From contig CAIPTO010000083.1 of assembly GCA_903867985.1 (NCBI GenBank), positions 20,664 to 84,663 of the forward strand: a stretch of 64,000 nucleotides of DNA, written 5' to 3'. The DNA is from an uncultured Elusimicrobia bacterium. Its GTDB lineage: Bacteria; Elusimicrobiota; Elusimicrobia; Elusimicrobiales; UBA9959. Below the pieces are notes generated by a model. It was not told the DNA's origin and ran no database searches. It saw nothing but the letters and a program-made list of their open reading frames with translations. The position numbers and the translations under genes were made by a program. Positions 24,432 through 44,074 of the stretch are shown piece by piece; positions within the stretch are counted from its first letter, which is position 1; every line of letters starts with the position of its first letter.

Positions 24432-24929
24432 ATGTACCGCTCTGAAAAAAACAATAACCCGATGCTTTTTCCCAAACTTTTTCACCTTGGGGGAAGGTTG
24501 GATGACTCCAATCGCTGGCTAAAGCTTGGCGAAGCTATGCCTTGGGAAAAGCTGGACGAACTTTATGGTAAGTATTTCACCAAAGGTTACGGCCGCCCGG
24601 CCAAGGATTCCCGCCTCATAACAGGGCTCCTGACAGTTAAACTGATCAAGAATCTTTCGGACGAGGAGGCTGTGCAGGAATTCATGGAGAACCCCTACAT
24701 GCAGGCTTTCTGCGGAGCCGAATATTTTGCCGTGGAAGACGTTATCAGTTCCAGCGTTCTTTCTGAACGCCGCAAGCGCCTCGGCGCAGATTTCTTCTCT
24801 TTCTTTGACTCCGAAGTTGGACGTGTTATTAGAGATTCCAAAACTTTCCGCCTCAGGTCCGCAAAAGACCCCTCCAGGGCCGGTTTAATAGGCCGCGTCA
24901 TTAATAAAATAAAAACCCTGTTCAATTGA
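24432..24929 (+). pseudogene. Truncated IS5/IS1182-like transposase (N-terminal DUF772-type domain only)
   Basis: 165 aa resembling the transposase N-terminal domain (NRWLKLGEAMPWEKLDELY ... GRPAKDSRLITGLLTVKLIKNLSDEEAV ... ENPYMQAFCG). No DDE catalytic domain follows. The ORF ends inside the tolB terminator hairpin. Lower GC than the flanks. Confidence 0.6.
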
Positions 24930-29542: not shown

Positions 29543-29737
29543 GTGATAAAAAGTATTTTAGCATAAAACGATTGCCGCATAATTAAACCGGCAGCCACTA
29601 TGCGCGCTTGGTCGGCAAGGGTGGCCGGCTTGATAACCATAGCTTCTGGTCCGGCACTACCATAGGTTTGTATGGCCGCAAAACGCGCTTTGTTATGCGG
29701 GGGAAAGGTTTAATTGAAACTCTCAGACTGATATCGG

Positions 29738-29766
29738 TTGACATGCGTGAAACGGATGCTTATAAT
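29738..29766 (+). promoter_or_regulatory. Perfect consensus sigma70 promoter for the FecR-OMP-giant protein-PorV-like locus
   Basis: TTGACA (29738-29743), 17 nt spacer, TATAAT (29761-29766). Predicted leader of about 145 nt before the ATG at 29920. Confidence 0.7.
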
Positions 29767-29919
29767 ACTAAGATAGGGTTGGGAATACAAGTTGAATTTA
29801 TAAATGCAATCGTGAATTACCGGAGCTTAAGCTCAGGCAATTGCCCCGATAAATATCAGGCTGGCGACGTATTGGCGTTTGTTAGTCGTATGAGGCTGAT
29901 GAAAGAGGTTTTAACACTT

Positions 29920-31356: not shown

Positions 31357-31434
31357 GTGACTGGTGTCGGGCGACGAGCGTGGAAAAACAGACTTCGGAT
31401 TTGTGGTCAACAATTATAGAAAGGGACTTTTTAT

Positions 31435-32682
31435 ATGAAAAAAACAAAGATCTCAGTCCTGAAAATATTCAGGTTTTTTATTCTTATCGCTCTTCCAGCT
31501 GCGTTGGCACCGCTGCCCCGCCTTTACGCACAGGTAAGGGTAATACCGGTGGCTAATATCTCTCTGATGGGAGGGAAATATTATCTGGACGATAAGGCGG
31601 CCTCTTTTCAGGGCAAGGCGGACGCTTTCATCTCGTCCGATATCAAGTTTTCGGAATCCAGCGATCTTATCCCGGTCTATTCAGGCTACTATAACGGCAC
31701 GCAGGATATTCAGGAGCTGGCCGGCGGCGGCGTACTGACGCGCAAGCGCCAGGGCCACACTTTTTCTTTGAAGTATGTGAATACCAGGGAGTTCGATAAA
31801 TATAAACCGCGGGTCTCGTATTCTAAAAATCTTATCAGCGAGACCAAAGATGAAAAATGGGGTGACGGTTTATTTGATTATGCCACCTTTTCGGCCGGCT
31901 TCGAAGCCGAGCAGGAGCGCCCGTATGGTACCTTCACCGAATCCTACGACTATTACTCGGTAAAGTATGGCAATTACGCCACACTGCTTTCCAAGTCGCA
32001 GACCGTTATCGACACCGCCACTTTCAACGAGCTTTCCGCTAACGCCGGAGCCAACACCATGGACAATGTGAACCACCGCCTGGGCTTCGCCTATACCTGG
32101 TTCCCGGACCCTTTGGTGCTGCAGGCCGGTTGCGATTTCACCTGGCGCGGCTATGGCGATCAGGCCGTGGTGTCCCGCCCGGTGGCCGGTTCGCCGTTCT
32201 TCAAGACCGACAAGCGATCAGACTTTCTTCAAAATGTCACTTTCAGGCTGACCCGCAATATCAAACCGCTGATGCTTTCTGTCGGCTCCCGCGTTTCTTA
32301 TTTAAGTTCGAATCAGAACTCGTATGACGCCTCCAGGACTAAGTTTATAGAGGATTATTACAGCTATGTGGAGTTCGGAGTTTCTCCGTCCATGAATTTT
32401 GCTTTCAAGAACGGCGCCATGTTCGGATTCTCGGTGGATTATTCAAAGCTTTATTACCTTGGCCGCCTTAAGCAGGATGACGCGGGCAATTATTCCAGGA
32501 CAAAGGCCAACCAGGACACCTGGCTTACCTCGCTTTCAGTCCGCTACCCGGTCATGAACAGGTTTTTCGCCCGTGCGGGGTACAATTACCAGATCGCAAG
32601 TTCCAATACGCGTTATGAGGCGAATTACAAATACAACTATCGGGCCAGTACTTACCTGATGGGTCTGGAGTGGGAGTTTTAA
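31435..32682 (+). CDS. Outer-membrane beta-barrel protein, family unknown
   Basis: Signal peptide, alternating hydrophobic beta-strand pattern rich in Y/S/N/G. C-terminal OMP signature ending in ...YLMGLEWEF. Confidence 0.6.
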   Translation: MKKTKISVLKIFRFFILIALPAALAPLPRLYAQVRVIPVANISLMGGKYYLDDKAASFQGKADAFISSDIKFSESSDLIPVYSGYYNGTQDIQELAGGGVLTRKRQGHTFSLKYVNTREFDKYKPRVSYSKNLISETKDEKWGDGLFDYATFSAGFEAEQERPYGTFTESYDYYSVKYGNYATLLSKSQTVIDTATFNELSANAGANTMDNVNHRLGFAYTWFPDPLVLQAGCDFTWRGYGDQAVVSRPVAGSPFFKTDKRSDFLQNVTFRLTRNIKPLMLSVGSRVSYLSSNQNSYDASRTKFIEDYYSYVEFGVSPSMNFAFKNGAMFGFSVDYSKLYYLGRLKQDDAGNYSRTKANQDTWLTSLSVRYPVMNRFFARAGYNYQIASSNTRYEANYKYNYRASTYLMGLEWEF

Positions 32683-32778
32683 ACAGAGGGCTGGGAACTG
32701 ATAATTAAGTTCGGTCAGACCTTAAAAACATACGGCTTGCAGTCTGCGGCTTATGCCGGGTATTTTTTAGGAGAAATT

Positions 32779-35700
32779 ATGTTTAACATTAGAAAAAATA
32801 TTTTAACTCTGACGACCGCGGCCGGTCTCTGGGCCGGATTGATCGGAAGCGCCGGAGCCGTTGCCACCCTTCCCCCGAGCGGGCTTAGCGTGGTAAGCGG
32901 CGATTATAACGGTTCCGTGAATCTATCCTGGAACGCGCCGGAAGCGCTTGCGGGAGGTAAATTTTACATTCAGTACAGCACTACGAACGGTCCATGGATC
33001 TCTACCGGTTCGGCGCAGATCGTCATAACCACTGCCACTATCGGGGCTCAGAGTATGCGCGTAAGCGGTCTGGAGTATGGCCGTAATGGCTCCGACCCCG
33101 CTTTCATATACTACTTTCATGTCTGGATAGAAAACACCGGCATCGTTTCCGCCCCTGTCACATCGGTTTCCGCTATTCCTTTGACCCCGGCCGCGCCTTC
33201 CACAGGCGTTTTGGCGCTGGCTGCCGGCTCTGTGCTATCCATAAACTCCCAGGGAGGCGGCTACGGATCCAAGCTTGCCGTAGACTCGTCCGGGAATTAT
33301 TACGCGCTTGCTTCCATGATGTTTTCATCATCAACCACGGGCACCGGTGGGACGAACTCATCGTCAGCCATAGCCCTGATAAAATTTTTACCGTCCGGCG
33401 CCGTGTCGTGGTACCGCGCGTACAACAGCACGATGAGTCTCTCCGGTTCGGATTGGACCAATGATCAGGCTACCGCCATGGCTCTCGGTTCGGACGGGAA
33501 CCTGATCATAGCCGGTAGGATAGATAAAGGCGCTAATGTCATGTTAAGGAAGTACACCGCCAACGGAGATATCTTGTGGACGAGGCTAATTGCGGCGGAT
33601 ATGTCCAGCAATAGCCGCATCAACGCTATTTCCATAAATTCCTCTACCGAGATATATACCGCAGGCGAGAAGTATTCCGGCACCGGGAATCTGTGGCTGG
33701 CAAAATTTAACAAGGATGGCGTCCAGCAGGGAGCGAACGCTTTTTATTCCAACGCGCAGTCCGGTTCATACGCCGGCAACGGGATAGCGTTGTATGGGGG
33801 GTATATTTATGTGGTCGGCACCAGGAATGTCCGCAACAACGACGACATCTTTGTGGAGAAATATGGAGATACCTGGCCCACGGTCCCGACACAGATCGGA
33901 GCGGTTACCGCAGGCGGTCCCAATTACGACCAGGGAAAGGGGATAAAGATAGACGCTTCGGGTAGCATTTTTGTGACAGGCGCGTATTATAGTTCCGCCA
34001 CGTATAATAATGCCTGTTGGACCGCTAAGTACGATTCCTCGCTTGTTCAGCAATGGCAGGACCTTTATTCCTACAGCGGTAATATGGCCTCCGGCGCGGC
34101 GCTGGAACTGGATCTAACCGGCAACGCTTATATTACCGGCAGTGAATATCGTAGCGACATATACCAGGGTGGCAATCTTTTGCTGCTGAAATATTCACCT
34201 GGCGGCGCGCGCCTGATGGTTCGCAGCGTGGACTACAATAAGGGTTATGAAGAAGGTTACGACGTTAAAGTGTCCAGCCTGGGCGTGATTTACGCCGTCG
34301 GAAGTTTCCCGAACGTGAACATGGGAACGAGTGTGAGCAGCCTGGGGATATATAAACTGGATATGACTTCGTCATCCTCCGGGCTTCTGGCCGACAAGGG
34401 CCCTTTCACCGGTTCCGTGAACCTGAGCTGGCTCTACCCGGCCGCCATGCCTGCCGGTTCCAAGTATTATGTTCAGTACAGCACTTTTTACAGTGTAAAC
34501 TGGTCCACGGCCTCCGCGGCAGAGTTCCCCATTAATGCCGCCGTCTCCGCTTTGTCGGCGCAAACCCACACGGTAGGCGGCCTGCAGGCCGCCCGCGGCG
34601 CCCTGAACAATATCAGCTCGCCTGTATATGCGTTTAGGGTCTGGTATTATAACGGAACAACTCTTACCGCCCTGCCCAACCTTGCTACTGCCTACACTAA
34701 CGTCCCCACCGCTCCGACAGAGAGCGTGATCACCAGTGCGGACGGTAATTTGCTCAAGCAGCTGGACGGCACGCCCGTCATGGGCTGGACCTCCGGCCCT
34801 TCCTTGGCCCGTGATAATGCCGGCAATGCCTATATGCTTTTTAGCGCAAATTTAGGCGTGGCCAGAGCTGATAACGCGGGTATCGCTCTCAGGAAATACA
34901 ATCCCTACGGTACACTTCTCTGGACCCGCTTCTATCACGGCGAACTTTCCGCCACCTATAACGCTTCCGCCATAGCCGCGGACGCGGACGGCAATATTAT
35001 AATAGCCGGCGAGGAGAACGCGCCCTCGCTGGAACAGGGTGACAATATCTGGGTCAGTAAGCTGGACTCCGACGGCAACCAGATCTGGACCAGAATTTAT
35101 GACGGCGCCGGTCATGGCGACGACTCCGTCAAAGCCGTGGCAACAGACGTTTCCGGAAATATTTATGTTACCGGCAAAGTTGAGGGTGCTTCCGGATCAG
35201 ATCTCGTTGTGATAAAATACACCGCGGCCGGCAGTCCTACGGCGCAAACCTATGATGGCGGCTCGACCGATGAAGGCACGGCTATAGACGCGGGAGCAGA
35301 CGGTTTCGTTTATGTGACCGGTAAATCCATGATCAACGCGTCTGGAGCGGATCCGGCCCATTATAGAATGATTTTCATTAAGTATAATTCTTCCCTTGCG
35401 TTTTCCTCAACCTGGACCAATAATCCTTTCTTTTACGAGTATCGCGCTGACAGGGATAATATTCCCTACGCCGTAAAGGTTTCTACGTGGGGCGACATCT
35501 ATGCCGCCGGTCAGGTATATGTTATCGGCTCCGATCTGCTGGATGCCTGGGCTGCCAGGATATCTCCGGCCGGTGTTATTACTTCCACTTCCGCTTCCGG
35601 CGCCGCCAGCGAATTCAGAGCGCTCACAATTTCCACCGCGACCGGAGAGGTCTTTGCCGCCGGCCGCCAGATATATCCCGTAGAAACGTTATGGTTCCAG

Positions 35701-38700
35701 AAACTAAACCCCTCTGACGTGAGTTACATGTGGAGCAAGAAGTTCCCTAATATCGGTCTGACCGGGCCTATATCCCCCGTGAATATCGTTATAGACAGCC
35801 GGGGGGACTTCAGCCTGAGCGTGATTATTTCCACCACGGTCAGCAGCCAGCCCGGTAGTTTTAAATTCAGTTCGCCGGCGGCGGCTATGTCCGCTGGTGT
35901 CACCGCGATCACTGGAACCGTGCCCGGCGGCGCGGAGCTATCCTGGGTCACCGGCGTCGCTCTGCCGGCCGGAACCTCTTATTATGTGCAGGCCAGCACC
36001 TGGAATGGCGGCTGGGATTTCGCCCTCGCGAAGCAGTCTTATCCGTCCCCCTACCAATATCAGCCACAGGCGTATACCGAGGGTTCGCTTGTCCGCATCA
36101 AAGCAGGTGATCTCACCGCCGGCCGCGACGCGCGGGGCAATACAACAGCGCCTTACTATTTCAATGTCTGGTACTATGCGGGCGGCGTCAGTACCACTAC
36201 GGTAACCGGTAATCCCTCAGCTCTGCCGAATATCCCAGTGATTTCAGAGACTTCCTACCCATACCCGCTCGGGCAGCTTTACCTGACCACGGGTCTCAAC
36301 ACCACCAGTCCGGTCAAAATGGTCCGTGCCGTTTCGGGAGATATCTATCTTGCCATCCAGACCTATTCCTCACAGGGCGACGCCTCATCTTCCGTCATCC
36401 TCAAAAAGTATAACCTGAGCGGCGTTTTGCAGTGGGTGCGCTATTATTTCTCGGGCAACGGCAGCGGCCTGCGTGCCTTGGCCAGCGACGCTTCCGGTAA
36501 TGTTTACATTTCCGGTTCCGGAAGGGACGCTGCCGGGACCAATCCATATATCGCAAAGTATTCCGACGCCGGAGAATTGCTCTGGTCCCGGACCATTCCT
36601 TCACGCGGAGCTTATGAGGATTTCAGCGGCTTAACGGCCGCGTCCGACGGAAGTATCTATCTGACCGGGCAGTACAACGCGGTAAGTTCAGGCGCGAATA
36701 TCTCCAGTGGCGCCGCTCTTCTGGCCAAGTATTCTCAGGCCGGAGTCCTGCTGGCTTCCTCAACGTATAGCGGGAGTTACAACTCTGTCCGGGCCGTTGG
36801 GATAACCTATAACGCGGTTGACGGCAATCTTTATGTGTCAGGCCAGGCGGGCATAAACACCTCCACAGCCTGCTTCTGGGTAGGAAAGTTTGACACCGGC
36901 CTGACATTCGTCGCAGATAAAAAATACTGTCCTTCCGCGCCCTATGGTTATTCATCCGGCAACACTATCAAAGTTGACGCTGCCGGCAGCATCTATGCCG
37001 CCGGCAGCGTTTATGACCAGTACCAGTATGACAATATGTTTATTGTGAAACTCACCCCGGCTCTTTCTGAGGTCTGGTCCAGCACCTACAATTCACCGGC
37101 CAATTCCTACGAATCAATACAGGGCCTTGCGGTGGACACGAGCAGCGGTGCGTATGTCAGCGGCTACGAGAACCGCAGCGACCTTAATCAGGGGTATAAC
37201 CTTTTCTTCAGGAAATACAATACCGGAACCGGCGACATAGTCTGGACCAATACTTTTAACAGTTCCGGGAACTCCTACGAGTATGCCGATGACATAGCCG
37301 TGGACTCATCCGGTTTCGTCTATGTGCCGGGCAGCTATAGCTATGGTGTTAATTACCAGTACGCCGCCGGCTATTTCAAATATAAACAGTTCAGCACTTC
37401 CGCCACCAATCCGATTATCACCGCATCCGTTAAATATAACGGGAGCAGCACGCCGCTGAAGGACGTGAATGTGATTTTGTTAGCGTTTAATCAGACGGGG
37501 GGGATGGACCCAGCCGGCATCCGGGTCAGCGCCACGGACGCCAACGGCAGATTCTCGGCCGCCGTGCCGGGCGGTTTAAAGTATTTTATCGGCCTTTCCA
37601 CACCCGGCTATGTGCCTACCGTAAAGGACCAATTAATGGATCCCAGCGGCAATTTTTACCTTACGCTCAACAGTGATACCACGAGAGAATTCTCTCTTTA
37701 TCCACGTGCGGCCTCTGACCCGATAAGCACACTGACCGTCAATGTTTCCGAGGGCCTGACGCCCGGTGACTTTCTGATGGGCGAGGTTTCAGTCAACAGG
37801 ACCGGAGAAAAAGTAGCCTACGGTGTATTGGCGGCCAGCGCCCCGGCCGGCCAGCTCCAGATTTTCAACGTGCCGTCCGCTCCGGCCGGAACCTACGGCG
37901 TGGCTTTGAGCGTACCCGGGAAGAATAAGTTCCTGAATTTTTTCCTGGACACAGCCTTTCCGGCCGATTCGGTTTACACGGTCAACATGTCCAGCGCTAT
38001 TTCTTCCAGCGGCGGTTTTGACACCTCCGGTTCCACCGTTCCTCCCTCTTTTCAGGGCGTAGTGCGCAGCAGTCCGACCATGGTTCCGTTGGAGGGCGCA
38101 AGGATAGAATTATTCATAAATCAGTGTTCCGGGGCCAACACCTGTTCCAAAGCGATTAGCTATGAGAATCTTACCGACGTAAACGGCCAATTCAGTTTCT
38201 ATAATCTCCCTTCCACTTCCACGCCGTATAATGTGAATGTTAAGAAACAGGGCTCGCGCAGCTGGTTTGACATGATCATGATCTCAAGCATGCCGGCGGG
38301 CGCCAATACAGCCGCTGCCGTGGCGCAGTACCGCGAGTACGCACTTTTCCCGGCCACTTATACTTTAACCGGCCTGATCAAATATAACGGTATACCCGTA
38401 CCCAACGCCCGAGTCATGGTCTACGGCGACTGGGCCACCGGCTCCGGGGACGATTCCTATTCCGGTTATTGGGACGGGGCCATGCAGAGCGACGCCCAGG
38501 TTCGCACCGGGGCGGACGGTTTATTTACCGCTGAAGGTCTGCCGGACGGCCGCGTGCGTGTGAATATGGACTTTATGGGCAACTGGCGAGACCTGAATAA
38601 CGGCCCGGATGGTACCAACGGCAACTCTGACGACTTGAAGATAATAATTTCTTCCGCCGGGGCCACCGGTCCCAGCGAGCCGGGAGGCAATCCCTGCCTG

Positions 38701-41700
38701 CCCGGGGCCAATTGGATACTTGACAGCGCCGGTGCCTGCCAGTCCGCCGGTCTTGTGACGTTCAATCTGACTCCGGACAGCGGCAACACCGCCGGCACCC
38801 TTTCCGGCACGGTGATTTTTGTCACCACCTATACGGTCAGCGCCGAAATGCCGCTGGTCGTGCCGGCGGAGTCGCCAGTCACCATCATGGCCACACAGTA
38901 TTGCGAGGGAGGTAACTGCCAGAACCGGCAGATGGGGTTCGCCTCAATCTCCGGCGAATTCACCAGCAACGCTACCACCTATTCGGTTACGCTTTCTACC
39001 GGCTTCTCTTATTACGCCAGCGTTATGTCCGGTGAATGGGGGAAGATGTCCAACTTCAACGACCGGGTCGACCTGACTTCCGCTACCACCGCCGCCATGG
39101 ACTTCACCCTGACCCGCTCCGGCGCGCTGCGCGGGGCTGTCAAAATGCCCGACGGCACCAGTTTCAAGCCCGTCTACAGTGTGGCCAGTGACGATCCCGG
39201 ATATATGACCGCCAGTATAGATGTGCGAGGCGTTAATGTTCAGTATAACTCCGGCACCGGCCTGGATGAATTCGGAAATTTTGAATTCCCTAACCTGCCG
39301 CCCGGCCTCTATAATGTCTACCTCAGGCCGCAAGGCGGGGCTTTCCGCTGGCCCCCCGCGGAAGTGGAGAATGTGCGTGTCACGCTGGGAAATACTACTG
39401 AGGTCAAGATAAAACTGAATGACGGTCTGACGGTACAGCCGCAGATCATCGGTCTGCAGGCGCTTTCAACGGCTACCTGGAGCTATACGGTTCTTGGCGT
39501 GCCTTCCGGTTTTCAGATGAATCAGAAGAATATCACCGAGATGTTCTTCGAGCAGCCGCAGTATTCCTTCAGCTACGACGCGGATTCCGCCAGCTGGGAT
39601 AAAAAGTTCATGGAGCCCGGGCAATACGACTTCTACCTGGTCGTAGGCGTCAATTATGATTGCGGCAAAAGCGTCGGGGCGAGTTGCGACCAGTTCGCCA
39701 CATTCATCGGCCGTGTGAAAAATGTCTCCATACAGAAAGATCCCAATAACGCGAATCTCGGTACCCTTACCCAGCCTATCCCTATAAATATTAAGGGCTC
39801 CCTGGGCCAGGCGGAGATGAAGGGCCGGGTTATTGGCGATAAGATATTCACGGCCGGAGATTTTGAGAAGATATTCTCTAACTTCGACTCGGAGATAATG
39901 GGCATCATTCCGGCCGTCATGCTGTACGATAATGCCGGCGATCTGAGGGCTTTTACCAACGCCATGCCGGATGCGGTCGGTCTGGTAGGGTTCGAGAGCG
40001 GCCTTAAAACCCGCAGTACGACCACCATCATAAATTCGCTTGCCGATAATCCTCTGCGCTACATGGCTTGGGGGCTGCCTCCGGGCAGGTATACCGCTGT
40101 TTATGTTAACCCTAATTATCCGCCCGTAACCGCGGATGTGACCCTGCCCAGGTCCGGTTCGGAGGAGACCACCCCCTTCGACTTCGACGCCCAGAAAAGT
40201 GTCGTGGGCACGATCCACGGTGTGGTGAAGAGCTCCGAGGCTGTCTCCTCGTTCGTGGGGAATGCTCTGGTCCGCCTGAAGCACAGGACTGTGGAAAAAT
40301 TCGTCGTAACCGATTCCTCCGGCGCCTATAGATTTTCAAACCTGCCCACCGGCATCTACAGGCTGGAAGTGACCCGGGATGGATTCGTAACCGTAGGTCA
40401 GAAAACCAGTCTCGCCGGTAACGACGAGGCGGAATTCAACTTCTTTATGCGGCCTTCCGAATCGAAGATAACCGGCAAAATTTACATGAGTAAGTTCCCG
40501 GCTCCGGTTACCAGGGCCGGGGTCAAGATAGTGGCATACGACGAGACCATGAATGTGGAAGCGCCGTCTTCCTATCTGCCCAAAATGGAAGTCCAGACTG
40601 ACGATGCCGGCTATTATGAGGTTCATGGCGTCATACCTGGCCATAAATACAAGCTTTCCGCCATGTTCAGCGGCAAAATGCCGGAAATAGTGGATGTCAA
40701 CGACGCGGCGGACGGCGTAACCGTGCTGGACGACATCGTGCTAAGGGATATCCCGCCGCAGATCATGGTCAAAGTGCGCCGGAATGCGGATTCCGTCAAC
40801 AAGGTAAATGTGGAAATACGCAGTCCGAGAGAACTGATCTCTACGCCGGTGTGCAAATACAACGCCGGTGATACTTACGAGGCGGCTTCCGCGGATGACA
40901 CTGTATGCGCTTCTACATCGGCGGTCATCCTCACGCTGGAGCTTGGCCCCGATAATACGTATCTGGGAGAGTTTACTGTCTCGCGGAACCAGCCGACTTA
41001 CAGCGTCTGCGTGTCGGCGGGGGACAATAATAAAATGAAAAAAGTTGTGGTGTACGACCAGGTCAGCGACGCCAAAACAGAGCAGTACATACAGGAAGAG
41101 GCCCTGGCCGGAGGCGAGATCAGCATGGATAAGGAAAAAGAGGAATATTCCGGCATGGAGCTTGACGCCGGTACTCTGTCCTATTCCACTTCTTCGGTTT
41201 CCGATGTCAATTTTCAGGACCTGGTCGGCGGCTTCTTCAGCGCCCTTCCCTCGGTTCGGACGGTAAAGACGGCCAAAGGCAATCTGAGCATTGAGGCGTC
41301 CCTGCAGGACTTGATGGCATCTGAAGTCTACAATATGGACCTTTCTAACGCCGATGTCAATAAGCCGTTCACCCTCACGCTGAAGTATGACAAAGAGCGG
41401 GTGATAAGTACCGGTAACCTTCGGATCTACCAGTATGACGAAGTCTCCGGCCAATGGAAGGAAGTTCCCGGCAACTATACCGTGGACCCGATGTCCGGAG
41501 TGATCGCGGTTGACATCGTTAATCTTAACTTCGCCTACGAAGGCACCGGCGGTTCCAATACCCCTCTGGGCCGCAAGCACTTCAAGATGAGCGCGGTGAG
41601 CAACGGGCGTTATGTTACCCGCGCGGCGCCAGCACTTCAGACCGGCAAATTCGCGGTGTTCACCGCCAAGCCCGGCAGCGGTGTGGCATACGCCGGTTCG

Positions 41701-42072
41701 TCGTACGAGGTTTACAATATGCCTAATCCGTTCAACCTTAAAGATAAGAACGTTACCATAAGCGCTGACGGCGGAGCGGCAATAGCCGCAGGGGCGCATA
41801 CCGTTAGGGGTACTATTATAAAATACCATCTTCCCGCCGGAAAATCAGGTGATCTTAAGTTTGTGATCTATAACCTGGCCGGAGAAAAGGTCAGGACCAT
41901 AGATGAAGGCGTCCGGACGATAACCACCGGCAGCGGAGAAGTGTTCTATTCCGAATGGGACGGAAAGAACGACACCAACCAGGATTGTGCTTCCGGCGTT
42001 TACTTCATGCTGACCTACCTTGACGGCAAGAAGCTGGGTAATAAGGTGCATAAGATGGCGATAATTAAATAG
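32779..42072 (+). CDS. Giant secreted surface protein: 3 x (FN3-like cap + SBBP beta-propeller) + CarboxypepD_reg-like array + T9SS-type C-terminal domain
   Basis: ATG 32779 behind AGGAG. Signal peptide MFNIRKNILTLTTAAGLWAGLIGSAGA. See the domain sub-features. 3097 aa from this start. Confidence 0.85.
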   Translation: MFNIRKNILTLTTAAGLWAGLIGSAGAVATLPPSGLSVVSGDYNGSVNLSWNAPEALAGGKFYIQYSTTNGPWISTGSAQIVITTATIGAQSMRVSGLEYGRNGSDPAFIYYFHVWIENTGIVSAPVTSVSAIPLTPAAPSTGVLALAAGSVLSINSQGGGYGSKLAVDSSGNYYALASMMFSSSTTGTGGTNSSSAIALIKFLPSGAVSWYRAYNSTMSLSGSDWTNDQATAMALGSDGNLIIAGRIDKGANVMLRKYTANGDILWTRLIAADMSSNSRINAISINSSTEIYTAGEKYSGTGNLWLAKFNKDGVQQGANAFYSNAQSGSYAGNGIALYGGYIYVVGTRNVRNNDDIFVEKYGDTWPTVPTQIGAVTAGGPNYDQGKGIKIDASGSIFVTGAYYSSATYNNACWTAKYDSSLVQQWQDLYSYSGNMASGAALELDLTGNAYITGSEYRSDIYQGGNLLLLKYSPGGARLMVRSVDYNKGYEEGYDVKVSSLGVIYAVGSFPNVNMGTSVSSLGIYKLDMTSSSSGLLADKGPFTGSVNLSWLYPAAMPAGSKYYVQYSTFYSVNWSTASAAEFPINAAVSALSAQTHTVGGLQAARGALNNISSPVYAFRVWYYNGTTLTALPNLATAYTNVPTAPTESVITSADGNLLKQLDGTPVMGWTSGPSLARDNAGNAYMLFSANLGVARADNAGIALRKYNPYGTLLWTRFYHGELSATYNASAIAADADGNIIIAGEENAPSLEQGDNIWVSKLDSDGNQIWTRIYDGAGHGDDSVKAVATDVSGNIYVTGKVEGASGSDLVVIKYTAAGSPTAQTYDGGSTDEGTAIDAGADGFVYVTGKSMINASGADPAHYRMIFIKYNSSLAFSSTWTNNPFFYEYRADRDNIPYAVKVSTWGDIYAAGQVYVIGSDLLDAWAARISPAGVITSTSASGAASEFRALTISTATGEVFAAGRQIYPVETLWFQKLNPSDVSYMWSKKFPNIGLTGPISPVNIVIDSRGDFSLSVIISTTVSSQPGSFKFSSPAAAMSAGVTAITGTVPGGAELSWVTGVALPAGTSYYVQASTWNGGWDFALAKQSYPSPYQYQPQAYTEGSLVRIKAGDLTAGRDARGNTTAPYYFNVWYYAGGVSTTTVTGNPSALPNIPVISETSYPYPLGQLYLTTGLNTTSPVKMVRAVSGDIYLAIQTYSSQGDASSSVILKKYNLSGVLQWVRYYFSGNGSGLRALASDASGNVYISGSGRDAAGTNPYIAKYSDAGELLWSRTIPSRGAYEDFSGLTAASDGSIYLTGQYNAVSSGANISSGAALLAKYSQAGVLLASSTYSGSYNSVRAVGITYNAVDGNLYVSGQAGINTSTACFWVGKFDTGLTFVADKKYCPSAPYGYSSGNTIKVDAAGSIYAAGSVYDQYQYDNMFIVKLTPALSEVWSSTYNSPANSYESIQGLAVDTSSGAYVSGYENRSDLNQGYNLFFRKYNTGTGDIVWTNTFNSSGNSYEYADDIAVDSSGFVYVPGSYSYGVNYQYAAGYFKYKQFSTSATNPIITASVKYNGSSTPLKDVNVILLAFNQTGGMDPAGIRVSATDANGRFSAAVPGGLKYFIGLSTPGYVPTVKDQLMDPSGNFYLTLNSDTTREFSLYPRAASDPISTLTVNVSEGLTPGDFLMGEVSVNRTGEKVAYGVLAASAPAGQLQIFNVPSAPAGTYGVALSVPGKNKFLNFFLDTAFPADSVYTVNMSSAISSSGGFDTSGSTVPPSFQGVVRSSPTMVPLEGARIELFINQCSGANTCSKAISYENLTDVNGQFSFYNLPSTSTPYNVNVKKQGSRSWFDMIMISSMPAGANTAAAVAQYREYALFPATYTLTGLIKYNGIPVPNARVMVYGDWATGSGDDSYSGYWDGAMQSDAQVRTGADGLFTAEGLPDGRVRVNMDFMGNWRDLNNGPDGTNGNSDDLKIIISSAGATGPSEPGGNPCLPGANWILDSAGACQSAGLVTFNLTPDSGNTAGTLSGTVIFVTTYTVSAEMPLVVPAESPVTIMATQYCEGGNCQNRQMGFASISGEFTSNATTYSVTLSTGFSYYASVMSGEWGKMSNFNDRVDLTSATTAAMDFTLTRSGALRGAVKMPDGTSFKPVYSVASDDPGYMTASIDVRGVNVQYNSGTGLDEFGNFEFPNLPPGLYNVYLRPQGGAFRWPPAEVENVRVTLGNTTEVKIKLNDGLTVQPQIIGLQALSTATWSYTVLGVPSGFQMNQKNITEMFFEQPQYSFSYDADSASWDKKFMEPGQYDFYLVVGVNYDCGKSVGASCDQFATFIGRVKNVSIQKDPNNANLGTLTQPIPINIKGSLGQAEMKGRVIGDKIFTAGDFEKIFSNFDSEIMGIIPAVMLYDNAGDLRAFTNAMPDAVGLVGFESGLKTRSTTTIINSLADNPLRYMAWGLPPGRYTAVYVNPNYPPVTADVTLPRSGSEETTPFDFDAQKSVVGTIHGVVKSSEAVSSFVGNALVRLKHRTVEKFVVTDSSGAYRFSNLPTGIYRLEVTRDGFVTVGQKTSLAGNDEAEFNFFMRPSESKITGKIYMSKFPAPVTRAGVKIVAYDETMNVEAPSSYLPKMEVQTDDAGYYEVHGVIPGHKYKLSAMFSGKMPEIVDVNDAADGVTVLDDIVLRDIPPQIMVKVRRNADSVNKVNVEIRSPRELISTPVCKYNAGDTYEAASADDTVCASTSAVILTLELGPDNTYLGEFTVSRNQPTYSVCVSAGDNNKMKKVVVYDQVSDAKTEQYIQEEALAGGEISMDKEKEEYSGMELDAGTLSYSTSSVSDVNFQDLVGGFFSALPSVRTVKTAKGNLSIEASLQDLMASEVYNMDLSNADVNKPFTLTLKYDKERVISTGNLRIYQYDEVSGQWKEVPGNYTVDPMSGVIAVDIVNLNFAYEGTGGSNTPLGRKHFKMSAVSNGRYVTRAAPALQTGKFAVFTAKPGSGVAYAGSSYEVYNMPNPFNLKDKNVTISADGGAAIAAGAHTVRGTIIKYHLPAGKSGDLKFVIYNLAGEKVRTIDEGVRTITTGSGEVFYSEWDGKNDTNQDCASGVYFMLTYLDGKKLGNKVHKMAIIK
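32869..34369 (+). other. Giant protein module 1: FN3-like cap plus SBBP beta-propeller repeats
   Basis: Cap: GSVNLSWNAPEALAGGKFYIQYST...YYFHVWIEN. Blades: DSSGNYYALAS, GSDGNLIIAGR, SSTEIYTAGE, GGYIYVVGT, DASGSIFVTGA, DLTGNAYITGS, SSLGVIYAVGS. Confidence 0.65.
34370..35880 (+). other. Giant protein module 2: FN3-like cap plus SBBP beta-propeller repeats
   Basis: Cap: GSVNLSWLYPAAMPAGSKYYVQYST...YAFRVWYYN. Blades: DNAGNAYMLFS, DADGNIIIAGE, DVSGNIYVTGK, GADGFVYVTGK, TWGDIYAAGQ, ATGEVFAAGR. Confidence 0.65.
35881..37400 (+). other. Giant protein module 3: FN3-like cap plus SBBP beta-propeller repeats
   Basis: Cap: GGAELSWVTGVALPAGTSYYVQAST...YYFNVWYYA. Blades: VSGDIYLAIQ, DASGNVYISGS, ASDGSIYLTGQ, VDGNLYVSGQ, DAAGSIYAAGS, DTSSGAYVSGY, DSSGFVYVPGS. 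Confidence 0.65.
37410..40700 (+). other. Giant protein: array of at least six CarboxypepD_reg-like (prealbumin-fold) domains
   Basis: Recurrent pattern G.V....G.P...A.V.L........TD..G.F.F..LP.G.Y.L. Examples: ATDANGRFSAAVPGGLKYFI, LTDVNGQFSFYNLPSTSTPY, TGADGLFTAEGLPDGRVRV, DEFGNFEFPNLPPGLYNVYL, TDSSGAYRFSNLPTGIYRLEV, TDDAGYYEVHGVIPGHKYKL. Confidence 0.6.
41704..42069 (+). other. Giant protein: T9SS type A sorting / FlgD-Ig-like C-terminal domain
   Basis: YNMPNPFNLKD...LKFVIYNLAGEKVRTI...EWDGKNDTNQDCASGVYFMLTYLDGKKLGNKVHKMAIIK. This matches the PNPF ... IY(N/D)xxG(R/E)xV ... WDG ... SGVY ... K pattern of Por-secretion-tail domains. Confidence 0.65.
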
Positions 42073-42214
42073 GGCTGCTGGTCGGTGAGTTTTAGAGTTA
42101 AGAGTTTTACAAGTTGCGGAGTTGAGGATTGTGTGTTGACTGCCGCGCTTCGGGCGAATCCTGACTGGGGGATTCGGAATCCGGGTAATGGATATTTTGC
42201 TGAAGAGGTAATTT

Positions 42215-43144
42215 ATGAAGAAAACACTATTTTTAGTGCTGACGCTGGCTTTGCCGGCTGGCGCTTACGCTTCGGGGGCCGGCACTACCGCCGCCCCGTT
42301 CCTGAAAGCTGCAATGAGCCCCAGGGCCGTGGCTATGGCTGGCGCATTCAGTCCGCTGGCCAACGATTCCGGCGCGGTCTTCGTGAATCCGGCCGGTCTG
42401 GCCCAGTTCGATAACAGGGAGGCGGGCGTGGACTTCACCAACTATTTTCAGGACGCCAAGATGGGGAACTTTTCTTACGCCGGTGAGATCGCCAATAACC
42501 GCTTCGGGTTTGGCGTGACGCTTATGAATGTTCCCGGAATAGAGAGGCGTTCCAACACTGACTCCGTGGGCGTGGTGCCGGATATCGGCTCATTCGATTC
42601 CAACGACCTGGCCGTTTCTCTGGCCTATGCCAGGAAGAATGTCTTCCCGGGCGCGTTGGACAATCTTGACGCGGGCGTGACTATCAAATTCATCCGCTCG
42701 TCCATAGATGATAATAACGCTTACGCCTTCGCGACGGACGCGGGTGCTATTTATCATGCCACTGATAAAATGAATTTTTCTCTGGTGATGCAGAACCTCG
42801 GTACCGGGATGAAATTTGAAGACGTCTCAGATCCGCTGCCCCTCAGCCTTAAAACCGGAATGCTTTACAAACTCTCTCCCCGGCTTAACCTCACCGGTGA
42901 GCTTGGGGAATATTTTAGAGATGAAAAGTTCTATCCCGCCTTTGGGGCTGAATACTGGTTCCGTGATTCTTTTGCGCTTCGCGGCGGATATAAGTTCGGC
43001 TATGACACCGTAAACCTCGGAGCCGAGGTCGGTTTGAGTCTGGGTTTCGGTCTTAAAGTAGCTGGTTTAGGGGTGGACTACGCCTATCTGCCATTCGGCG
43101 ATCTTGGCAATATTCACCGTTTCGGTTTTTGGATGCAGTTCTGA
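42215..43144 (+). CDS. PorV/PorQ-family-like outer-membrane beta-barrel
   Basis: Signal peptide, then the family-typical N-terminus GAGTTAAPFLKAAMSPRAVAMAGAFSPLANDSGAVFVNPAGLAQF. A barrel of about 290 aa ending in ...IHRFGFWMQF. Confidence 0.6.
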   Translation: MKKTLFLVLTLALPAGAYASGAGTTAAPFLKAAMSPRAVAMAGAFSPLANDSGAVFVNPAGLAQFDNREAGVDFTNYFQDAKMGNFSYAGEIANNRFGFGVTLMNVPGIERRSNTDSVGVVPDIGSFDSNDLAVSLAYARKNVFPGALDNLDAGVTIKFIRSSIDDNNAYAFATDAGAIYHATDKMNFSLVMQNLGTGMKFEDVSDPLPLSLKTGMLYKLSPRLNLTGELGEYFRDEKFYPAFGAEYWFRDSFALRGGYKFGYDTVNLGAEVGLSLGFGLKVAGLGVDYAYLPFGDLGNIHRFGFWMQF

Positions 43145-43152
43145 CCCGTCTT

Positions 43153-43782
43153 TTATTTTAAAAAATCCTGGTTAGGCCAATCGCTCGGCTGGCCTTCTAT
43201 CGAGACCAACCTGGCATCCTCGTTGGAGAGGGCGCTCATTTTTTGGAATGATTCCCTGAGCTCTGTCAATGATACATCCAGACGTTTTATTTTCATAAGG
43301 ATGATATAGGTTACCACCGCCATTGCCAGGGATAGCGGCAGAATAAGCATCCATGTTGAGGATTTCAGGCTCATGAGTATGCAGGCGCACAGAAAAACCC
43401 AGTAGCTCAGGGTGGCGCTGGCCCCGGCGAGTATATAGGCGATGATGATATTGTGTTCCTCGTTCCTGGGCAGGGAGAGCAGGATCACTATCAGGGCTAT
43501 ATCCATTATCAAAAGGTATACCGCCCGGGCCACCCAGCTTTTCCAGCGGCTTTTGGAGACCATGAATACGCCTCTGACCGAATCGTTTATCAATTCCGCG
43601 TCGTCGTAATCCACGGAAACAATTTCTTTTAGGACCTGTGATGCTTCATCGCCGGGGGGTGTGTAGTCGAAAGCCTGCTGTTTTGCGTCGCTATCGTATT
43701 GGGCCGCGGCAGGCAGAGCGGCGGCAAAGAACGGGAGCGCGAGAGTGAGCGCCAAAAAAACTCGGTTAATTCCCATTATCAA
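43153..43782 (-). CDS. Hypothetical membrane protein (signal peptide + 3-4 TM)
   Basis: MIMGINRVFLALTLALPFFAAALPAAAQ leader and hydrophobic helices (VYLLIMDIALIVILLSL; IIIAYILAGASATLSYWVFLCACILM; MLILPLSLAMAVVTYIILM). No recognisable family. Confidence 0.5.
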   Translation of the reverse strand: MIMGINRVFLALTLALPFFAAALPAAAQYDSDAKQQAFDYTPPGDEASQVLKEIVSVDYDDAELINDSVRGVFMVSKSRWKSWVARAVYLLIMDIALIVILLSLPRNEEHNIIIAYILAGASATLSYWVFLCACILMSLKSSTWMLILPLSLAMAVVTYIILMKIKRLDVSLTELRESFQKMSALSNEDARLVSIEGQPSDWPNQDFLK

Positions 43783-44074
43783 CCTCCGGGAGGGCGGGTA
43801 TCTTGGTAAGGGTACCCTTTTCTTCCAGTGTGTAATATTGCGTGGCGCCTACGCGAAACTTCGGGGCGTAGAACTGGGCCTCCTTCAGTTTCTGGGACTC
43901 CTGCGCCTTTGAGATCTTTTGCTGATGGATTTTTATGTTTGGCCTTACCGCCATGCGGTCGGAAAAGTGCCAGTAGGATGAAACGAATCCGCCTATAACG
44001 CAGGTCACCATTACCCCGCATAAAAAGTATTCTTCCCTGTCCGGGCGTATCCAAAATTTTCGCAGAGACATCAT
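43766..44074 (-). CDS. Small single-TM hypothetical protein, translationally coupled to valS
   Basis: 102 aa with TM FLCGVMVTCVIGGFVSSYW. Its ATG overlaps the valS TGA (ATGA). Overlaps the next ORF by 17 nt. Confidence 0.45.
   Translation of the reverse strand: MMSLRKFWIRPDREEYFLCGVMVTCVIGGFVSSYWHFSDRMAVRPNIKIHQQKISKAQESQKLKEAQFYAPKFRVGATQYYTLEEKGTLTKIPALPEVDNGN

What the first reader, a model, noticed from the sequence alone, without database searches (positions are those of the whole stretch)
41704..43144. T9SS-type C-terminal sorting domain encoded right next to a PorV-like barrel
The last roughly 120 aa of the giant protein match the Por-secretion-tail / FlgD-Ig pattern: NMPNPFN, VIYNLAGEKVRTI, WDGKND, SGVYFM and a basic C-terminal end. 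The next gene, 142 nt downstream, starts like PorV/PorQ family proteins (TTAAPFLK...SPRAVAMAGAF...NPAGLA). In Bacteroidota, PorV is the outer-membrane shuttle that binds CTD cargo. A dedicated one-cargo, one-shuttle pair would be an unusual, minimal arrangement, particularly if the genome lacks the rest of the T9SS.
Basis: partly seen in the sequence, partly recalled or inferred. Interest (0 to 1): 0.65.

Follow-up and report, generated by a model that had tools for sequence, protein, structure and literature searches.

The report
Giant surface protein with dedicated PorV-like partner
In a phylum (Elusimicrobiota) not known to have the type IX secretion system, a 3,097-residue surface-type protein ending in a T9SS-like tail is always encoded next to its own PorV/PorQ-family outer-membrane barrel, inside a conserved four-gene cassette that may be a small, self-contained surface-display module.

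Summary
The giant ORF (32779..42072) ends in the quoted motifs, and 142 nt downstream lies a 309-aa barrel (42215..43144).

The barrel passes NCBIfam PorV/PorQ family NF033709 (168 bits, cutoff 90) but not the PorV or PorQ equivalogs. The window's own CTD fails both thresholds (TIGR04183 14.9 vs 23; FlgD_ig 22.3 vs 27). Even so, 47 of 54 orthologous CTDs reach the FlgD_ig threshold, and CTDs in a related Elusimicrobia locus (L070) pass TIGR04183.

The organism is an Elusimicrobiota MAG, outside the FCB group. The adjacency is not incidental. The barrel follows the CTD in 51 of 52 species-level genomes. The pair belongs to a four-gene cassette: a FecR-domain protein, a novel 16-strand barrel, the giant cargo and the PorV/Q-like barrel. 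The cassette keeps together down to about 30% identity while its flanks change, and it occurs as paralogous copies (L013, L070).

Best reading: a dedicated display module in which the CTD docks on its cognate barrel, as PorZ does on PorQ or type-B cargo on SprF.

Not shown: that the genome lacks a canonical T9SS, that CTD and barrel physically bind, and how the protein crosses the outer membrane.

The parts
29738..29766 (+). Perfect sigma-70 consensus promoter (TTGACA-17 nt-TATAAT), the likely cassette promoter
   Evidence: 12 of 12 matches, the only perfect site in 29400-44200. It lies inside the long TTG-started ORF, so the FecR-like gene must start downstream of it. Whether it functions as a promoter is inferred.
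29890..31356 (+). FecR-domain protein. It has an N-terminal signal/TM segment MRYISSLFVIIVFAGFSSAA, then a FecR domain, then a C-terminal region of about 330 aa with no known family. The start is ATG 29890 or 29920.
   Evidence: PF04773 66.2 bits against a cutoff of 24. Weak LipL45/Lsa33 hits. No PDB sequence relative. Conserved upstream in the cassette in L004, L023, L026, L043, L049, L050, L052, L054, L058, L060 and L063-L065, L068, L069.
31435..32682 (+). Novel outer-membrane beta-barrel ('bar415', 415 aa). It has a signal peptide, about 16 strands and the C-terminal ...GLEWEF signature.
   Evidence: No Pfam, NCBIfam or PDB sequence hit. AlphaFold model pLDDT 85.1 with 16 long strands. Foldseek gives only generic porin/OmpG/BcsC/AlgE-like matches, TM 0.37-0.48. 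The family has 517 representatives among 1.84 billion proteins. It is upstream of the giant gene in 28 of 28 loci where that region is visible.
32779..42072 (+). Giant cargo protein (3,097 aa). It has a Sec-type signal peptide, then N-terminal modules with SBBP beta-propeller repeats, each preceded by a recurring 'SW...YY.QYST' segment that looks Fn3-like by eye, then an array of CarboxypepD_reg/transthyretin-like domains, then the CTD.
   Evidence: SBBP/LipL53-like 145 bits in 6 stretches; CarboxypepD_reg 102.6 bits in 6 stretches. Gene callers on public contigs start it at this ATG. Median identity to orthologues rises along the protein: N-terminal half 28%, C-terminal body 50%, CTD 68%.
41698..42069 (+). 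C-terminal domain (last 124 aa): an FlgD-Ig / T9SS type-A-like beta-sandwich ending in KMAIIK
   Evidence: Window copy: FlgD_ig 22.3 (below 27), TIGR04183 14.9 (below 23), PorU C-terminus E=4.6e-4, PorZ C-terminus E=4.4e-3. 47 of 54 orthologues reach the FlgD_ig gathering-score equivalent. AlphaFold pLDDT 81.8, 8-strand sandwich. Weak fold matches to FlgD, PorZ 5m11, PorU 6za2 and the NucA CTD 8glk_D. It is the most conserved part of the cargo.
42073..42214 (+). 142-nt spacer with a ribosome-binding site (GAAGAGG) before the barrel ATG
   Evidence: No terminator-like site. No significant RNA structure, z=-0.01. In orthologous loci the gap has a median of about 74 nt, and the genes overlap in L064, L068 and the second pair of L070.
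42215..43144 (+). PorV/PorQ-family outer-membrane barrel (309 aa) with a signal peptide (cleavage after AYA) and the C-terminal ...FWMQF signature
   Evidence: NF033709 168.3 bits against a cutoff of 90. PorQ equivalog 123 (below 220), PorV equivalog 64.6 (below 250), PF19572 16.6 (below 27). PDB: PorV 6h3i_F, E=1.2e-5. NCBI names orthologues 'PorV/PorQ family protein'. It lies directly downstream of the CTD in 51 of 52 genomes.

Best explanation
The four co-directional genes 29890..43144 form one operon-like cassette that builds a dedicated cell-surface display module of Elusimicrobiota.

The 3,097-aa protein is exported by Sec. Its variable N-terminal beta-propeller modules are the exposed, functional end (adhesin or S-layer-like). 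Its conserved C-terminal beta-sandwich is homologous to FlgD-Ig / T9SS type-A CTDs and is the handle by which the protein is recognised and held at the outer membrane by the PorV/PorQ-family barrel encoded immediately downstream. The closest functional analogues are PorZ held by PorQ, PorU held by PorV, and type-B-CTD adhesins held by their cognate PorP/SprF barrel.

The two upstream genes always travel with the pair: a periplasmic FecR-domain protein and a novel 16-strand barrel. I propose that they supply the outer-membrane passage or assembly step that SprA and PorKLMN supply in Bacteroidota.

Shown: gene content, family assignments, phylum-wide linkage, duplication of the genes as a unit, and the conservation gradient.

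Inferred: physical CTD-barrel binding, surface location of the cargo, and the role of the second barrel and the FecR-like protein. The last is the weakest step.
For: - Barrel family: NF033709 passes in the window (168 bits) and in every cassette barrel tested (153-183 bits); PorQ always scores above PorV. Its only PDB relative is PorV.
- CTD family: 47 of 54 orthologues reach the FlgD_ig threshold. The two L070 cargo CTDs pass TIGR04183 at 29.7 and 39.9 bits. All CTDs hit the extreme C-termini of the PorU and PorZ models and end in K-[MLI]-[AG]-[IV]-[IV]-[KR]. The model is a beta-sandwich.
- Linkage: the barrel lies within 1.2 kb downstream of the CTD in 51 of 52 Elusimicrobiota species genomes, and bar415 lies upstream in 28 of 28. 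The full cassette persists at 41-49% barrel identity with unrelated flanking genes in L004, L068 and L069. Around bar415 homologues of only 29-37% identity, FecR-bar415-giant is kept in L063, L064 and L065; only L064 extends beyond the giant gene, and there the PorV-like gene follows. Start and stop codons overlap in L064 and L068.
- Unit duplication: L013 carries a second, diverged, tightly packed copy of all four gene types in a different order. L070 carries two cargo genes, each followed by a PorV-family barrel gene: directly after the second cargo, and two genes downstream of the giant.
- Constraint: the CTD (68%), the PorV/Q barrel (68%) and bar415 (66%) are as conserved as ValRS (65%), whereas the cargo N-terminus is at 28%. 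CTD identity tracks barrel identity (rho 0.72) better than it tracks the rest of its own protein (rho 0.47) or a neighbouring gene (rho 0.07).
- Expression: a perfect sigma-70 promoter precedes the first gene, and there is no terminator-like site in the spacer between the giant gene and the barrel.
- Precedent: cargo genes directly followed by a cognate shuttle or anchor barrel gene are established for type-B CTDs (PMC12618676, PMC9143113).
Against: - The window's own CTD is below both curated thresholds, and TIGR04183 fails in most orthologues tested.
- Fold matches to T9SS CTDs are weak (E>2e-3, TM up to 0.55) and no better than matches to FlgD.
- No co-fold or binding evidence could be obtained.
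- Across ten pairs, CTD and barrel identities correlate only moderately (rho 0.50). The L070 barrel #1 is 73% identical to the L004 barrel although the upstream CTDs are only 41% identical.
- One barrel homologue (L005) has no giant gene next to it.
- bar415 has no specific structural relative. FecR-plus-bar415 pairs also occur without any cargo or PorV-like gene, once next to an ECF sigma factor (L066, L067). That fits a signalling role as well as it fits a transport role.
- Whether a canonical T9SS exists elsewhere in the genome is untested.
Confidence: 0.6

Rival explanations
1. An ordinary T9SS accessory. The organism has a complete T9SS elsewhere in its genome. The giant protein is one of many type-A CTD cargos, and the barrel is a PorQ/PorV paralogue that happens to be encoded next to it.
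For: The barrel is in the PorV/PorQ family. Related CTDs pass TIGR04183. An Ignavibacteria locus from the FCB group shows the same CTD-then-barrel order (L061). Only 64 kb of this genome was examined.
Against: The literature restricts T9SS to Bacteroidota or the FCB superphylum (PMC12618676, PMC11205867, PMC12398890), and Elusimicrobiota lies outside the FCB group. No paper links T9SS with Elusimicrobia. No T9SS core gene was seen in the window. A CTD-profile search of the 1.07 Mb held at that point found only one CTD per locus except in L013; L070, fetched later, also has two. A general shuttle would not need strict one-to-one linkage with a cargo, or duplication together with it.
Confidence: 0.12
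2. The barrel is a FadL/UPF0164-type importer of hydrophobic compounds. The C-terminal domain is merely a structural Ig-like domain, and the adjacency reflects co-expression of envelope genes rather than a physical partnership.
For: Weak Pfam hits to Toluene_X (19.1 bits) and UPF0164 (18.2 bits). JGI names some orthologues 'long-subunit fatty acid transport protein'. FlgD_ig is a general fold. The CTD fails TIGR04183. L005 has a barrel without the giant gene.
Against: Both Pfam hits are below threshold, whereas NF033709 passes by a wide margin. Linkage in 51 of 52 genomes, overlapping genes and co-duplication with a cargo are not expected for a lipid importer. The domain is always at the extreme C-terminus, is the most conserved part of the cargo, and matches the C-terminal ends of the PorU and PorZ models specifically.
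Confidence: 0.1
3. The cassette is two modules with different jobs. The FecR-like protein and bar415 form a trans-envelope sensing pair descended from FecR/FecA-type signalling that regulates or monitors the surface protein. Only the CTD and the PorV/Q barrel deal with display, and export across the outer membrane uses some other route such as T2SS or Bam.
For: A FecR domain is present. FecR-plus-bar415 pairs occur without a cargo or PorV-like gene, in L067 directly after an ECF sigma factor. L063 has a cNMP-binding gene inserted in the cassette. bar415 has no translocon-like features that could be recognised.
Against: The window's FecR-like protein has no cytoplasmic anti-sigma domain, since the promoter lies just upstream of a signal/TM segment, and no ECF sigma gene is adjacent. 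In Elusimicrobiota all four genes stay together and duplicate together.
Confidence: 0.18

Closest known systems
PorZ-PorQ and PorU-PorV pairs of the Porphyromonas gingivalis T9SS attachment complex
   Same: A surface protein keeps a type-A-like CTD and is held on the cell surface by a PorV-family barrel. The CTDs here reproducibly match the extreme C-termini of the PorU and PorZ models, and the barrels score best against PorQ among the equivalogs.
   Different: Here the genes are adjacent and strictly linked. The barrel is shorter (309 aa) and fails the PorQ and PorV equivalog cutoffs. The phylum lies outside the FCB group. No PorU sortase or any other T9SS gene was seen in the window. The cargo is a 3,097-aa adhesin-like protein, not an LPS-delivery or sortase component.
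[quoted passage not shown]
   Same: The gene order is cargo followed directly by its own outer-membrane barrel. Specificity is one-to-one. The cargos are very large adhesins, and there are multiple paralogous pairs per genome.
   Different: The CTD is type-A/FlgD-Ig-like: the window CTD gave no TIGR04131 hit at E<=1, and the L070 cargo-2 CTD scored 13.4 against a cutoff of 35. The barrel is PorV/PorQ family, not PorP/SprF: TIGR03519 scored at most 28 against a cutoff of 90.55. The Flavobacterium pairs depend on the SprA translocon and GldKLMN.
PorV as the general type-A CTD shuttle on the SprA translocon (PDB 6h3i, 8gl6-8gln)
   Same: It is the only solved structure with detectable sequence similarity to the barrel, and it belongs to the same NCBIfam subfamily.
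   Different: PorV serves all type-A cargos and is not encoded next to them. About 80 residues of PorV (roughly 193-323) have no counterpart in the 309-aa barrel.
Two-partner secretion (TpsA exoprotein with a TpsB 16-strand barrel)
   Same: An operon couples a giant Sec-exported surface protein to a dedicated 16-strand outer-membrane barrel.
   Different: This is an analogy only. bar415 has no POTRA domains and no Omp85/TpsB sequence or specific fold match. The cargo has no N-terminal TPS domain, and its recognition element is C-terminal.
FecI-FecR-FecA trans-envelope signalling
   Same: A FecR periplasmic domain is encoded next to an outer-membrane barrel. One distant relative (L067) also has an adjacent ECF sigma factor.
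   Different: In the window there is no anti-sigma N-terminal domain, no adjacent ECF sigma factor, and the barrel is not a TonB-dependent transducer.

Membership tests
PorV/PorQ family (NCBIfam NF033709) | Whole-protein score at or above the curated cutoff (90 bits) | tested here: met
   168.3 bits, E=3.1e-49, covering model positions 1-326 of 326. Barrels of related cassettes score 153-183 bits.
PorV/PorQ family (NCBIfam NF033709) | Outer-membrane beta-barrel hallmarks: a signal peptide and a C-terminal aromatic residue | tested here: met
   MKKTLFLVLTLALPAGAYA|SG at the N-terminus and ...FGFWMQF at the C-terminus, read directly from the sequence. No dedicated predictor was run and no structure model was made for this protein.
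T9SS PorV proper (NF033710 equivalog; Pfam PF19572) | Equivalog cutoff of 250 bits; Pfam gathering score of 27 | tested here: not met
   64.6 bits and 16.6 bits. Some relatives pass PF19572: L064 35.5, L013 copy 2 28.2.
T9SS PorQ proper (NF033711 equivalog) | Equivalog cutoff of 220 bits | tested here: not met
   123.2 bits in the window and 102-140 bits in relatives. PorQ is always the best-scoring equivalog but always below cutoff.
T9SS type-A CTD (TIGR04183 / PF18962) | Score at or above the cutoff (23 bits; Pfam 27) | tested here: not met
   Window 14.9 bits. Orthologues and other relatives score 15-20.6. It passes only in L070 (29.7 and 39.9 bits) and in the Ignavibacteria locus L061 (34.1 bits; PF18962 30.8).
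T9SS type-A CTD (TIGR04183 / PF18962) | Located at the extreme C-terminus of a protein with a Sec signal peptide; a seven-strand Ig-like beta-sandwich | tested here: met
   The last 124 aa form the domain, and the N-terminus MFNIRKNILTLTTAAGLWAGLIGSAGA is signal-like. The AlphaFold model is a beta-sandwich with pLDDT 81.8. Fold similarity to the PorZ, PorU and NucA CTDs is weak, E 5e-3 to 3e-2.
T9SS type-A CTD (TIGR04183 / PF18962) | Secretion depends on SprA/Sov, PorKLMN and PorV | not testable with these tools
   This needs the whole genome plus genetics. Only the 64-kb window could be scanned, and no core gene was found.
FlgD Ig-like domain (Pfam PF13860) | Gathering score of 27 bits | tested here: not met
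   The window copy scores 22.3 bits, E=1.3e-4. At family level, 47 of 54 orthologous CTDs reach E<=4.5e-6, which corresponds to about 27 bits, so the window copy is a borderline member of a family that belongs.
Type-B CTD with PorP/SprF pairs (TIGR04131 / TIGR03519) | The CTD passes TIGR04131 (35 bits) and the barrel passes TIGR03519 (90.55 bits) | tested here: not met
   No hit for the window proteins at E<=1. The best scores in relatives are 13.4 and 28.3 bits.
Complete type IX secretion system | Presence of SprA/Sov, PorK/L/M/N (GldK-N), PorU, PorT and the other core components | not testable with these tools
   None was found among the roughly 50 ORFs of the window scanned. Genome-wide presence or absence could not be examined. 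The literature places T9SS in Bacteroidota/FCB only (PMC12618676, PMC11205867), and Elusimicrobiota is outside the FCB group.
FecR family (Pfam PF04773) / FecR-type anti-sigma factor | FecR domain at or above the gathering score; for an anti-sigma factor, also an N-terminal cytoplasmic anti-sigma domain and an adjacent ECF sigma gene | tested here: inconclusive
   The domain criterion is met at 66.2 bits against 24. The anti-sigma architecture is not met: the promoter at 29738-29766 leaves only a signal/TM segment before the FecR domain, and no ECF sigma gene is adjacent.
FadL/Toluene_X (PF03349) and UPF0164 (PF03687) | Gathering scores of 29.7 and 21.4 bits | tested here: not met
   19.1 and 18.2 bits.

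The most novel reading that the evidence does not exclude
The four genes constitute a self-contained, T9SS-independent system for secretion and anchoring through a C-terminal domain. The novel 16-strand barrel, helped by the periplasmic FecR-domain protein, passes the giant protein across the outer membrane, and the PorV/PorQ-like barrel captures its CTD and retains it on the surface. That would make CTD/PorV-type recognition older and more widespread than the Bacteroidota T9SS, and this cassette a minimal relative or precursor of its cargo-handling module, present across Elusimicrobiota and, in part, in Omnitrophota.
Probability: 0.3. Interest if true: 0.85.

Novelty: new variant of a known kind. 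Interest (0 to 1): 0.62.

Why it matters
T9SS research treats CTD recognition by PorV-family barrels as a feature of a 15-to-20-component Bacteroidota machine. This locus shows the same two parts, a type-A-like CTD and a PorV/PorQ-family barrel, hard-wired one-to-one in a phylum outside the FCB group. With them travel just two other conserved partners, one of which is a barrel family with no annotation anywhere.

If the cassette works without SprA and PorKLMN, it is a far simpler system in which to study how a CTD is recognised and how a protein of about 3,000 residues reaches and stays on the cell surface. It would also bear on the evolutionary origin of T9SS.

It also identifies what is probably the main surface protein of many uncultured Elusimicrobiota. 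A cultured species (Elusimicrobium minutum) exists for testing, provided it carries the cassette, which was not checked directly.

Even under the conservative reading it extends the 'each cargo brings its own barrel' rule from type-B CTD/PorP pairs to type-A-like CTD/PorV-Q pairs.

Tried and rejected
- Homologue search with the CTD alone returned only 16 short contig-end fragments of the same orthologue and gave no information on other cargos.
- A PDB sequence search with the CTD profile found only FlgD Ig domains at E>=3e-3, and no T9SS CTD.
- A Foldseek PDB search with the CTD model gave no match at E<=1e-3. T9SS CTD-bearing chains appear, but no better than FlgD or unrelated Ig domains.
- A Foldseek PDB search with the bar415 model returned generic barrels only.
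- PDB sequence searches with bar415, the FecR-like protein and the whole giant protein gave no hits.
- Rfam and tRNA scans of the window found nothing.
- The 142-nt spacer has no significant RNA structure (z=-0.01) and no terminator, so the idea of an attenuator was rejected.
- Tandem-repeat and self-BLAST searches found no recent internal repeats in the giant gene.
- Literature searches for T9SS in Elusimicrobia or Elusimicrobiota turned up only incidental co-mentions. The E. minutum genome paper is not held.
- I considered the two conserved minus-strand genes downstream (43153..44074) as cassette members and rejected them. They are lost in the more distant loci that keep the cassette: L004, L052, L054, L058, L060, L068, L069.
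- The co-divergence test on ten CTD/barrel pairs gave only moderate support (rho 0.50) and is not used as strong evidence.

Full report
**1. The observation**

The ORF 32737..42072 encodes a giant protein. Gene callers on identical public contigs start it at 32779, giving 3,097 aa. The next ORF on the same strand, 42215..43144 (309 aa), begins MKKTLFLVLTLALPAGAYASGAGTTAAPFLKAAMSPRAVAMAGAF...NPAGLA and ends ...FWMQF. The spacer is exactly 142 nt. The description is accurate.

**2. Family scores**

The barrel:
- It passes the NCBIfam PorV/PorQ family model NF033709 over its full length (168.3 bits, cutoff 90).
- It does not reach the PorQ (123 vs 220), PorV (64.6 vs 250) or PorV2 equivalogs, nor Pfam PorV (16.6 vs 27).
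- Its only sequence relative among solved structures is F. johnsoniae PorV (6h3i_F, E=1.2e-5).

The window's CTD:
- It is below threshold for TIGR04183 (14.9 vs 23) and FlgD_ig (22.3 vs 27).
- It has weak hits to the extreme C-terminal ends of the PorU and PorZ models.
- At family level the picture changes. 47 of 54 orthologous CTDs reach the E-value that corresponds to the FlgD_ig gathering score.
- In a related Elusimicrobia locus (L070) two cargo C-termini pass TIGR04183, at 29.7 and 39.9 bits.
- All CTDs tested hit the PorU and PorZ C-termini and end in K-[MLI]-[AG]-[IV]-[IV]-[KR].
- An AlphaFold model (pLDDT 81.8) is a beta-sandwich. Its PDB fold matches (FlgD, PorZ, PorU, a NucA CTD) are all weak.

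I conclude that the tail is a divergent member of the FlgD-Ig / type-A-CTD kind. It is not a member of TIGR04183 by the curated test.

**3. Organism and surroundings**

Barrel homologues (40-94% identity, about 309 aa) come from Elusimicrobiota MAGs, and NCBI already names many of them 'PorV/PorQ family protein'. The closest genome in the species collection is Elusimicrobiota ELA399. Elusimicrobiota is a phylum outside the FCB group.

The rest of the window is housekeeping: SMC, PolA, Rho, RF1, MurA, Tol-Pal, MenA, ValRS, LigA, PurH, enolase and others. No T9SS core gene is present.

**4. The adjacency is part of a conserved cassette**

A scan of one genome per species with the CTD profile found 53 Elusimicrobiota genomes, each with one locus.
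- The PorV/Q-like gene lies within 1.2 kb downstream of the CTD in 51 of the 52 loci that have at least 400 nt of downstream sequence. The exception ends 405 nt after the CTD. The median gap is about 74 nt.
- Upstream of the giant gene there is always a homologue of the 415-aa ORF 31435..32682 (28 of 28 loci where that region is visible). Where the flank reaches further, there is also a homologue of the FecR-domain ORF ending at 31356.
- The four genes stay together at 41-49% barrel identity while the flanking genes differ completely (L004, L068, L069).
- Around bar415 homologues of only 29-37% identity, the order FecR-like, bar415, giant is kept in L063, L064 and L065. L064, the only one of these loci that extends past the giant gene, also has the PorV-like gene, with overlapping start and stop codons.
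- The two minus-strand genes downstream in the window are not retained in the distant loci, so they are not part of the unit.
- A perfect sigma-70 consensus promoter lies at 29738-29766, just before the FecR-like gene. It fixes that gene's start at ATG 29890 or 29920 and leaves only a signal/TM segment ahead of the FecR domain.

**5. The other two genes**

The 415-aa protein has a signal peptide and an ...EWEF end, and it has no Pfam, NCBIfam or PDB sequence match. With a 41-sequence alignment AlphaFold gives a confident 16-strand barrel (pLDDT 85.1) that resembles only generic porin-like barrels.

An exhaustive HMMER search finds 517 representatives among 1.84 billion proteins. The named ones are Elusimicrobia or, for two of the more distant members, Candidatus Omnitrophota.

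In an Omnitrophota contig, and in one unassigned contig, a FecR-like gene and a bar415-like gene are paired without any giant or PorV-like gene. In the unassigned contig the pair sits next to an ECF sigma factor. The cassette may therefore be a union of two older pairs.

**6. Evidence that the genes work as a unit**

- L013 carries, beside the primary cassette, a second, diverged and tightly packed set of all four gene types in a different order: cargo with a 42%-identical CTD, a PorV/Q-like barrel at 35%, a bar415-like barrel at 26% and a FecR-like protein at 29%.
- L070 carries two cargo genes with CTDs and two PorV-family barrel genes. One barrel directly follows the second cargo. The other lies two genes downstream of the giant.
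- Conservation rises along the cargo from 28% (N-terminal half) to 50% (C-terminal body) to 68% (CTD). That equals the PorV/Q barrel (68%), bar415 (66%) and ValRS (65%).
- CTD identity tracks barrel identity (rho 0.72) better than it tracks the rest of its own protein (0.47) or a neighbouring gene (0.07).
- A ten-pair comparison that included paralogues gave only rho 0.50 and one clear mismatch. I therefore treat co-divergence as suggestive only.

**7. Mechanism**

The best-supported reading is a dedicated display module.
- Sec exports the giant protein.
- Its fast-evolving beta-propeller end is the exposed, functional part.
- Its strongly constrained CTD is recognised and held by the cognate PorV/PorQ-family barrel.

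Known parallels are PorZ on PorQ, PorU on PorV, and type-B CTD adhesins on their PorP/SprF barrel. In the last case the barrel gene likewise lies directly downstream of the cargo gene (PMC12618676, PMC9143113).

How the protein crosses the outer membrane is not shown. I propose bar415 with the FecR-like protein as the most economical candidates, because they are always co-inherited. A signalling role is a serious rival.

**8. What could not be done**

The literature places T9SS only in Bacteroidota or the FCB superphylum (PMC12618676, PMC11205867, PMC12398890), and no paper connects it with Elusimicrobia. I could not scan a whole Elusimicrobiota genome for SprA, PorKLMN or PorU. I could not count CTD proteins genome-wide. 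I could not co-fold the CTD with the barrel. These are the decisive tests.

**9. Novelty and verdict**

The individual parts are of known kinds, and the barrel is already named by NCBI. The following appear undescribed:
- strict one-to-one genetic coupling of a type-A-like CTD cargo with a PorV/PorQ-family barrel;
- its embedding in a four-gene cassette with an unannotated barrel family and a FecR-domain protein;
- its phylum-wide presence outside the FCB group.

I rate it a new variant of a known kind, with interest 0.62. I give about a 0.3 chance that it is a self-contained CTD-dependent secretion and anchoring system.

Noticed in passing
window 24432..24929 (+): A 165-aa ORF matches only the N-terminal quarter of IS5-family transposases (model positions 8-116 of 419). 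It is an insertion-sequence remnant between the thymidine kinase gene and the Tol-Pal genes.
   Followed up: no
window 20472..22547 (+): A 691-aa protein whose only recognisable feature is a weak LptC domain at residues 25-102. That is unusually long for an LptC-like protein.
   Followed up: no
window 29608..29889 (+): The mechanical ORF for the FecR-like gene starts at a TTG 280 nt too early. A perfect TTGACA-17-TATAAT promoter (29738-29766) lies inside that extension, so the true start is ATG 29890 or 29920.
   Followed up: yes
L013 1..6489: A second, diverged four-gene cassette in a different order (cargo, PorV/Q-like, bar415-like, FecR-like) sits directly beside the primary one. The primary giant gene there appears truncated or mis-assembled: an 823-aa ORF plus a stray FecR fragment at 6634-6843.
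   Followed up: partly
L070 1..17305: An Elusimicrobia locus with two CTD cargos that pass TIGR04183 and two PorV-family barrels. An extra 597-aa CarboxypepD_reg protein and a short 337-aa FecR/Lsa33-like protein lie between the giant gene and the first barrel. No bar415 is visible within the locus.
   Followed up: partly
L061 4779..5421 (Ignavibacteria MAG): A 1,656-aa protein whose CTD passes TIGR04183 and strongly resembles the PorZ C-terminus (58.5 bits) is followed 88 nt later by a PorV/Q-like barrel gene. The same cargo-then-barrel order therefore also occurs inside the FCB group.
   Followed up: partly
L066 1991..6850 (Ca. Omnitrophota) and L067 7575..12203: bar415-like barrels are paired with FecR-domain proteins but with no giant cargo or PorV-like gene on the contig. 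In L067 the pair follows an ECF sigma factor, which hints at a signalling ancestry for this half of the cassette.
   Followed up: partly
L027 10372..10863, L045 10360..10935; proteins P0002, P0014, P0078: In a few genomes the gap between CTD and barrel is 490-570 nt, and the 'barrel' is called as a 435-437-aa protein carrying PF05635/PF22296 (23S rRNA-intervening-sequence-type four-helix bundle). A small extra gene is inserted or fused there.
   Followed up: no
L063 3104..3547: A 147-aa cyclic-nucleotide-binding protein gene is inserted between the bar415-like gene and the giant gene in one divergent cassette.
   Followed up: no
L005 9298..10972: One barrel homologue (48% identical, on a 655-kb contig) has no giant gene upstream and sits beside an IS110-family transposase. 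This may be a rearranged locus.
   Followed up: no
window 43153..44074 (-): Two small genes of unknown function (209 and 102 aa, overlapping) lie between the barrel and valS. They are conserved only in the nearer relatives. The 102-aa one has a faint OEP-like hit.
   Followed up: partly
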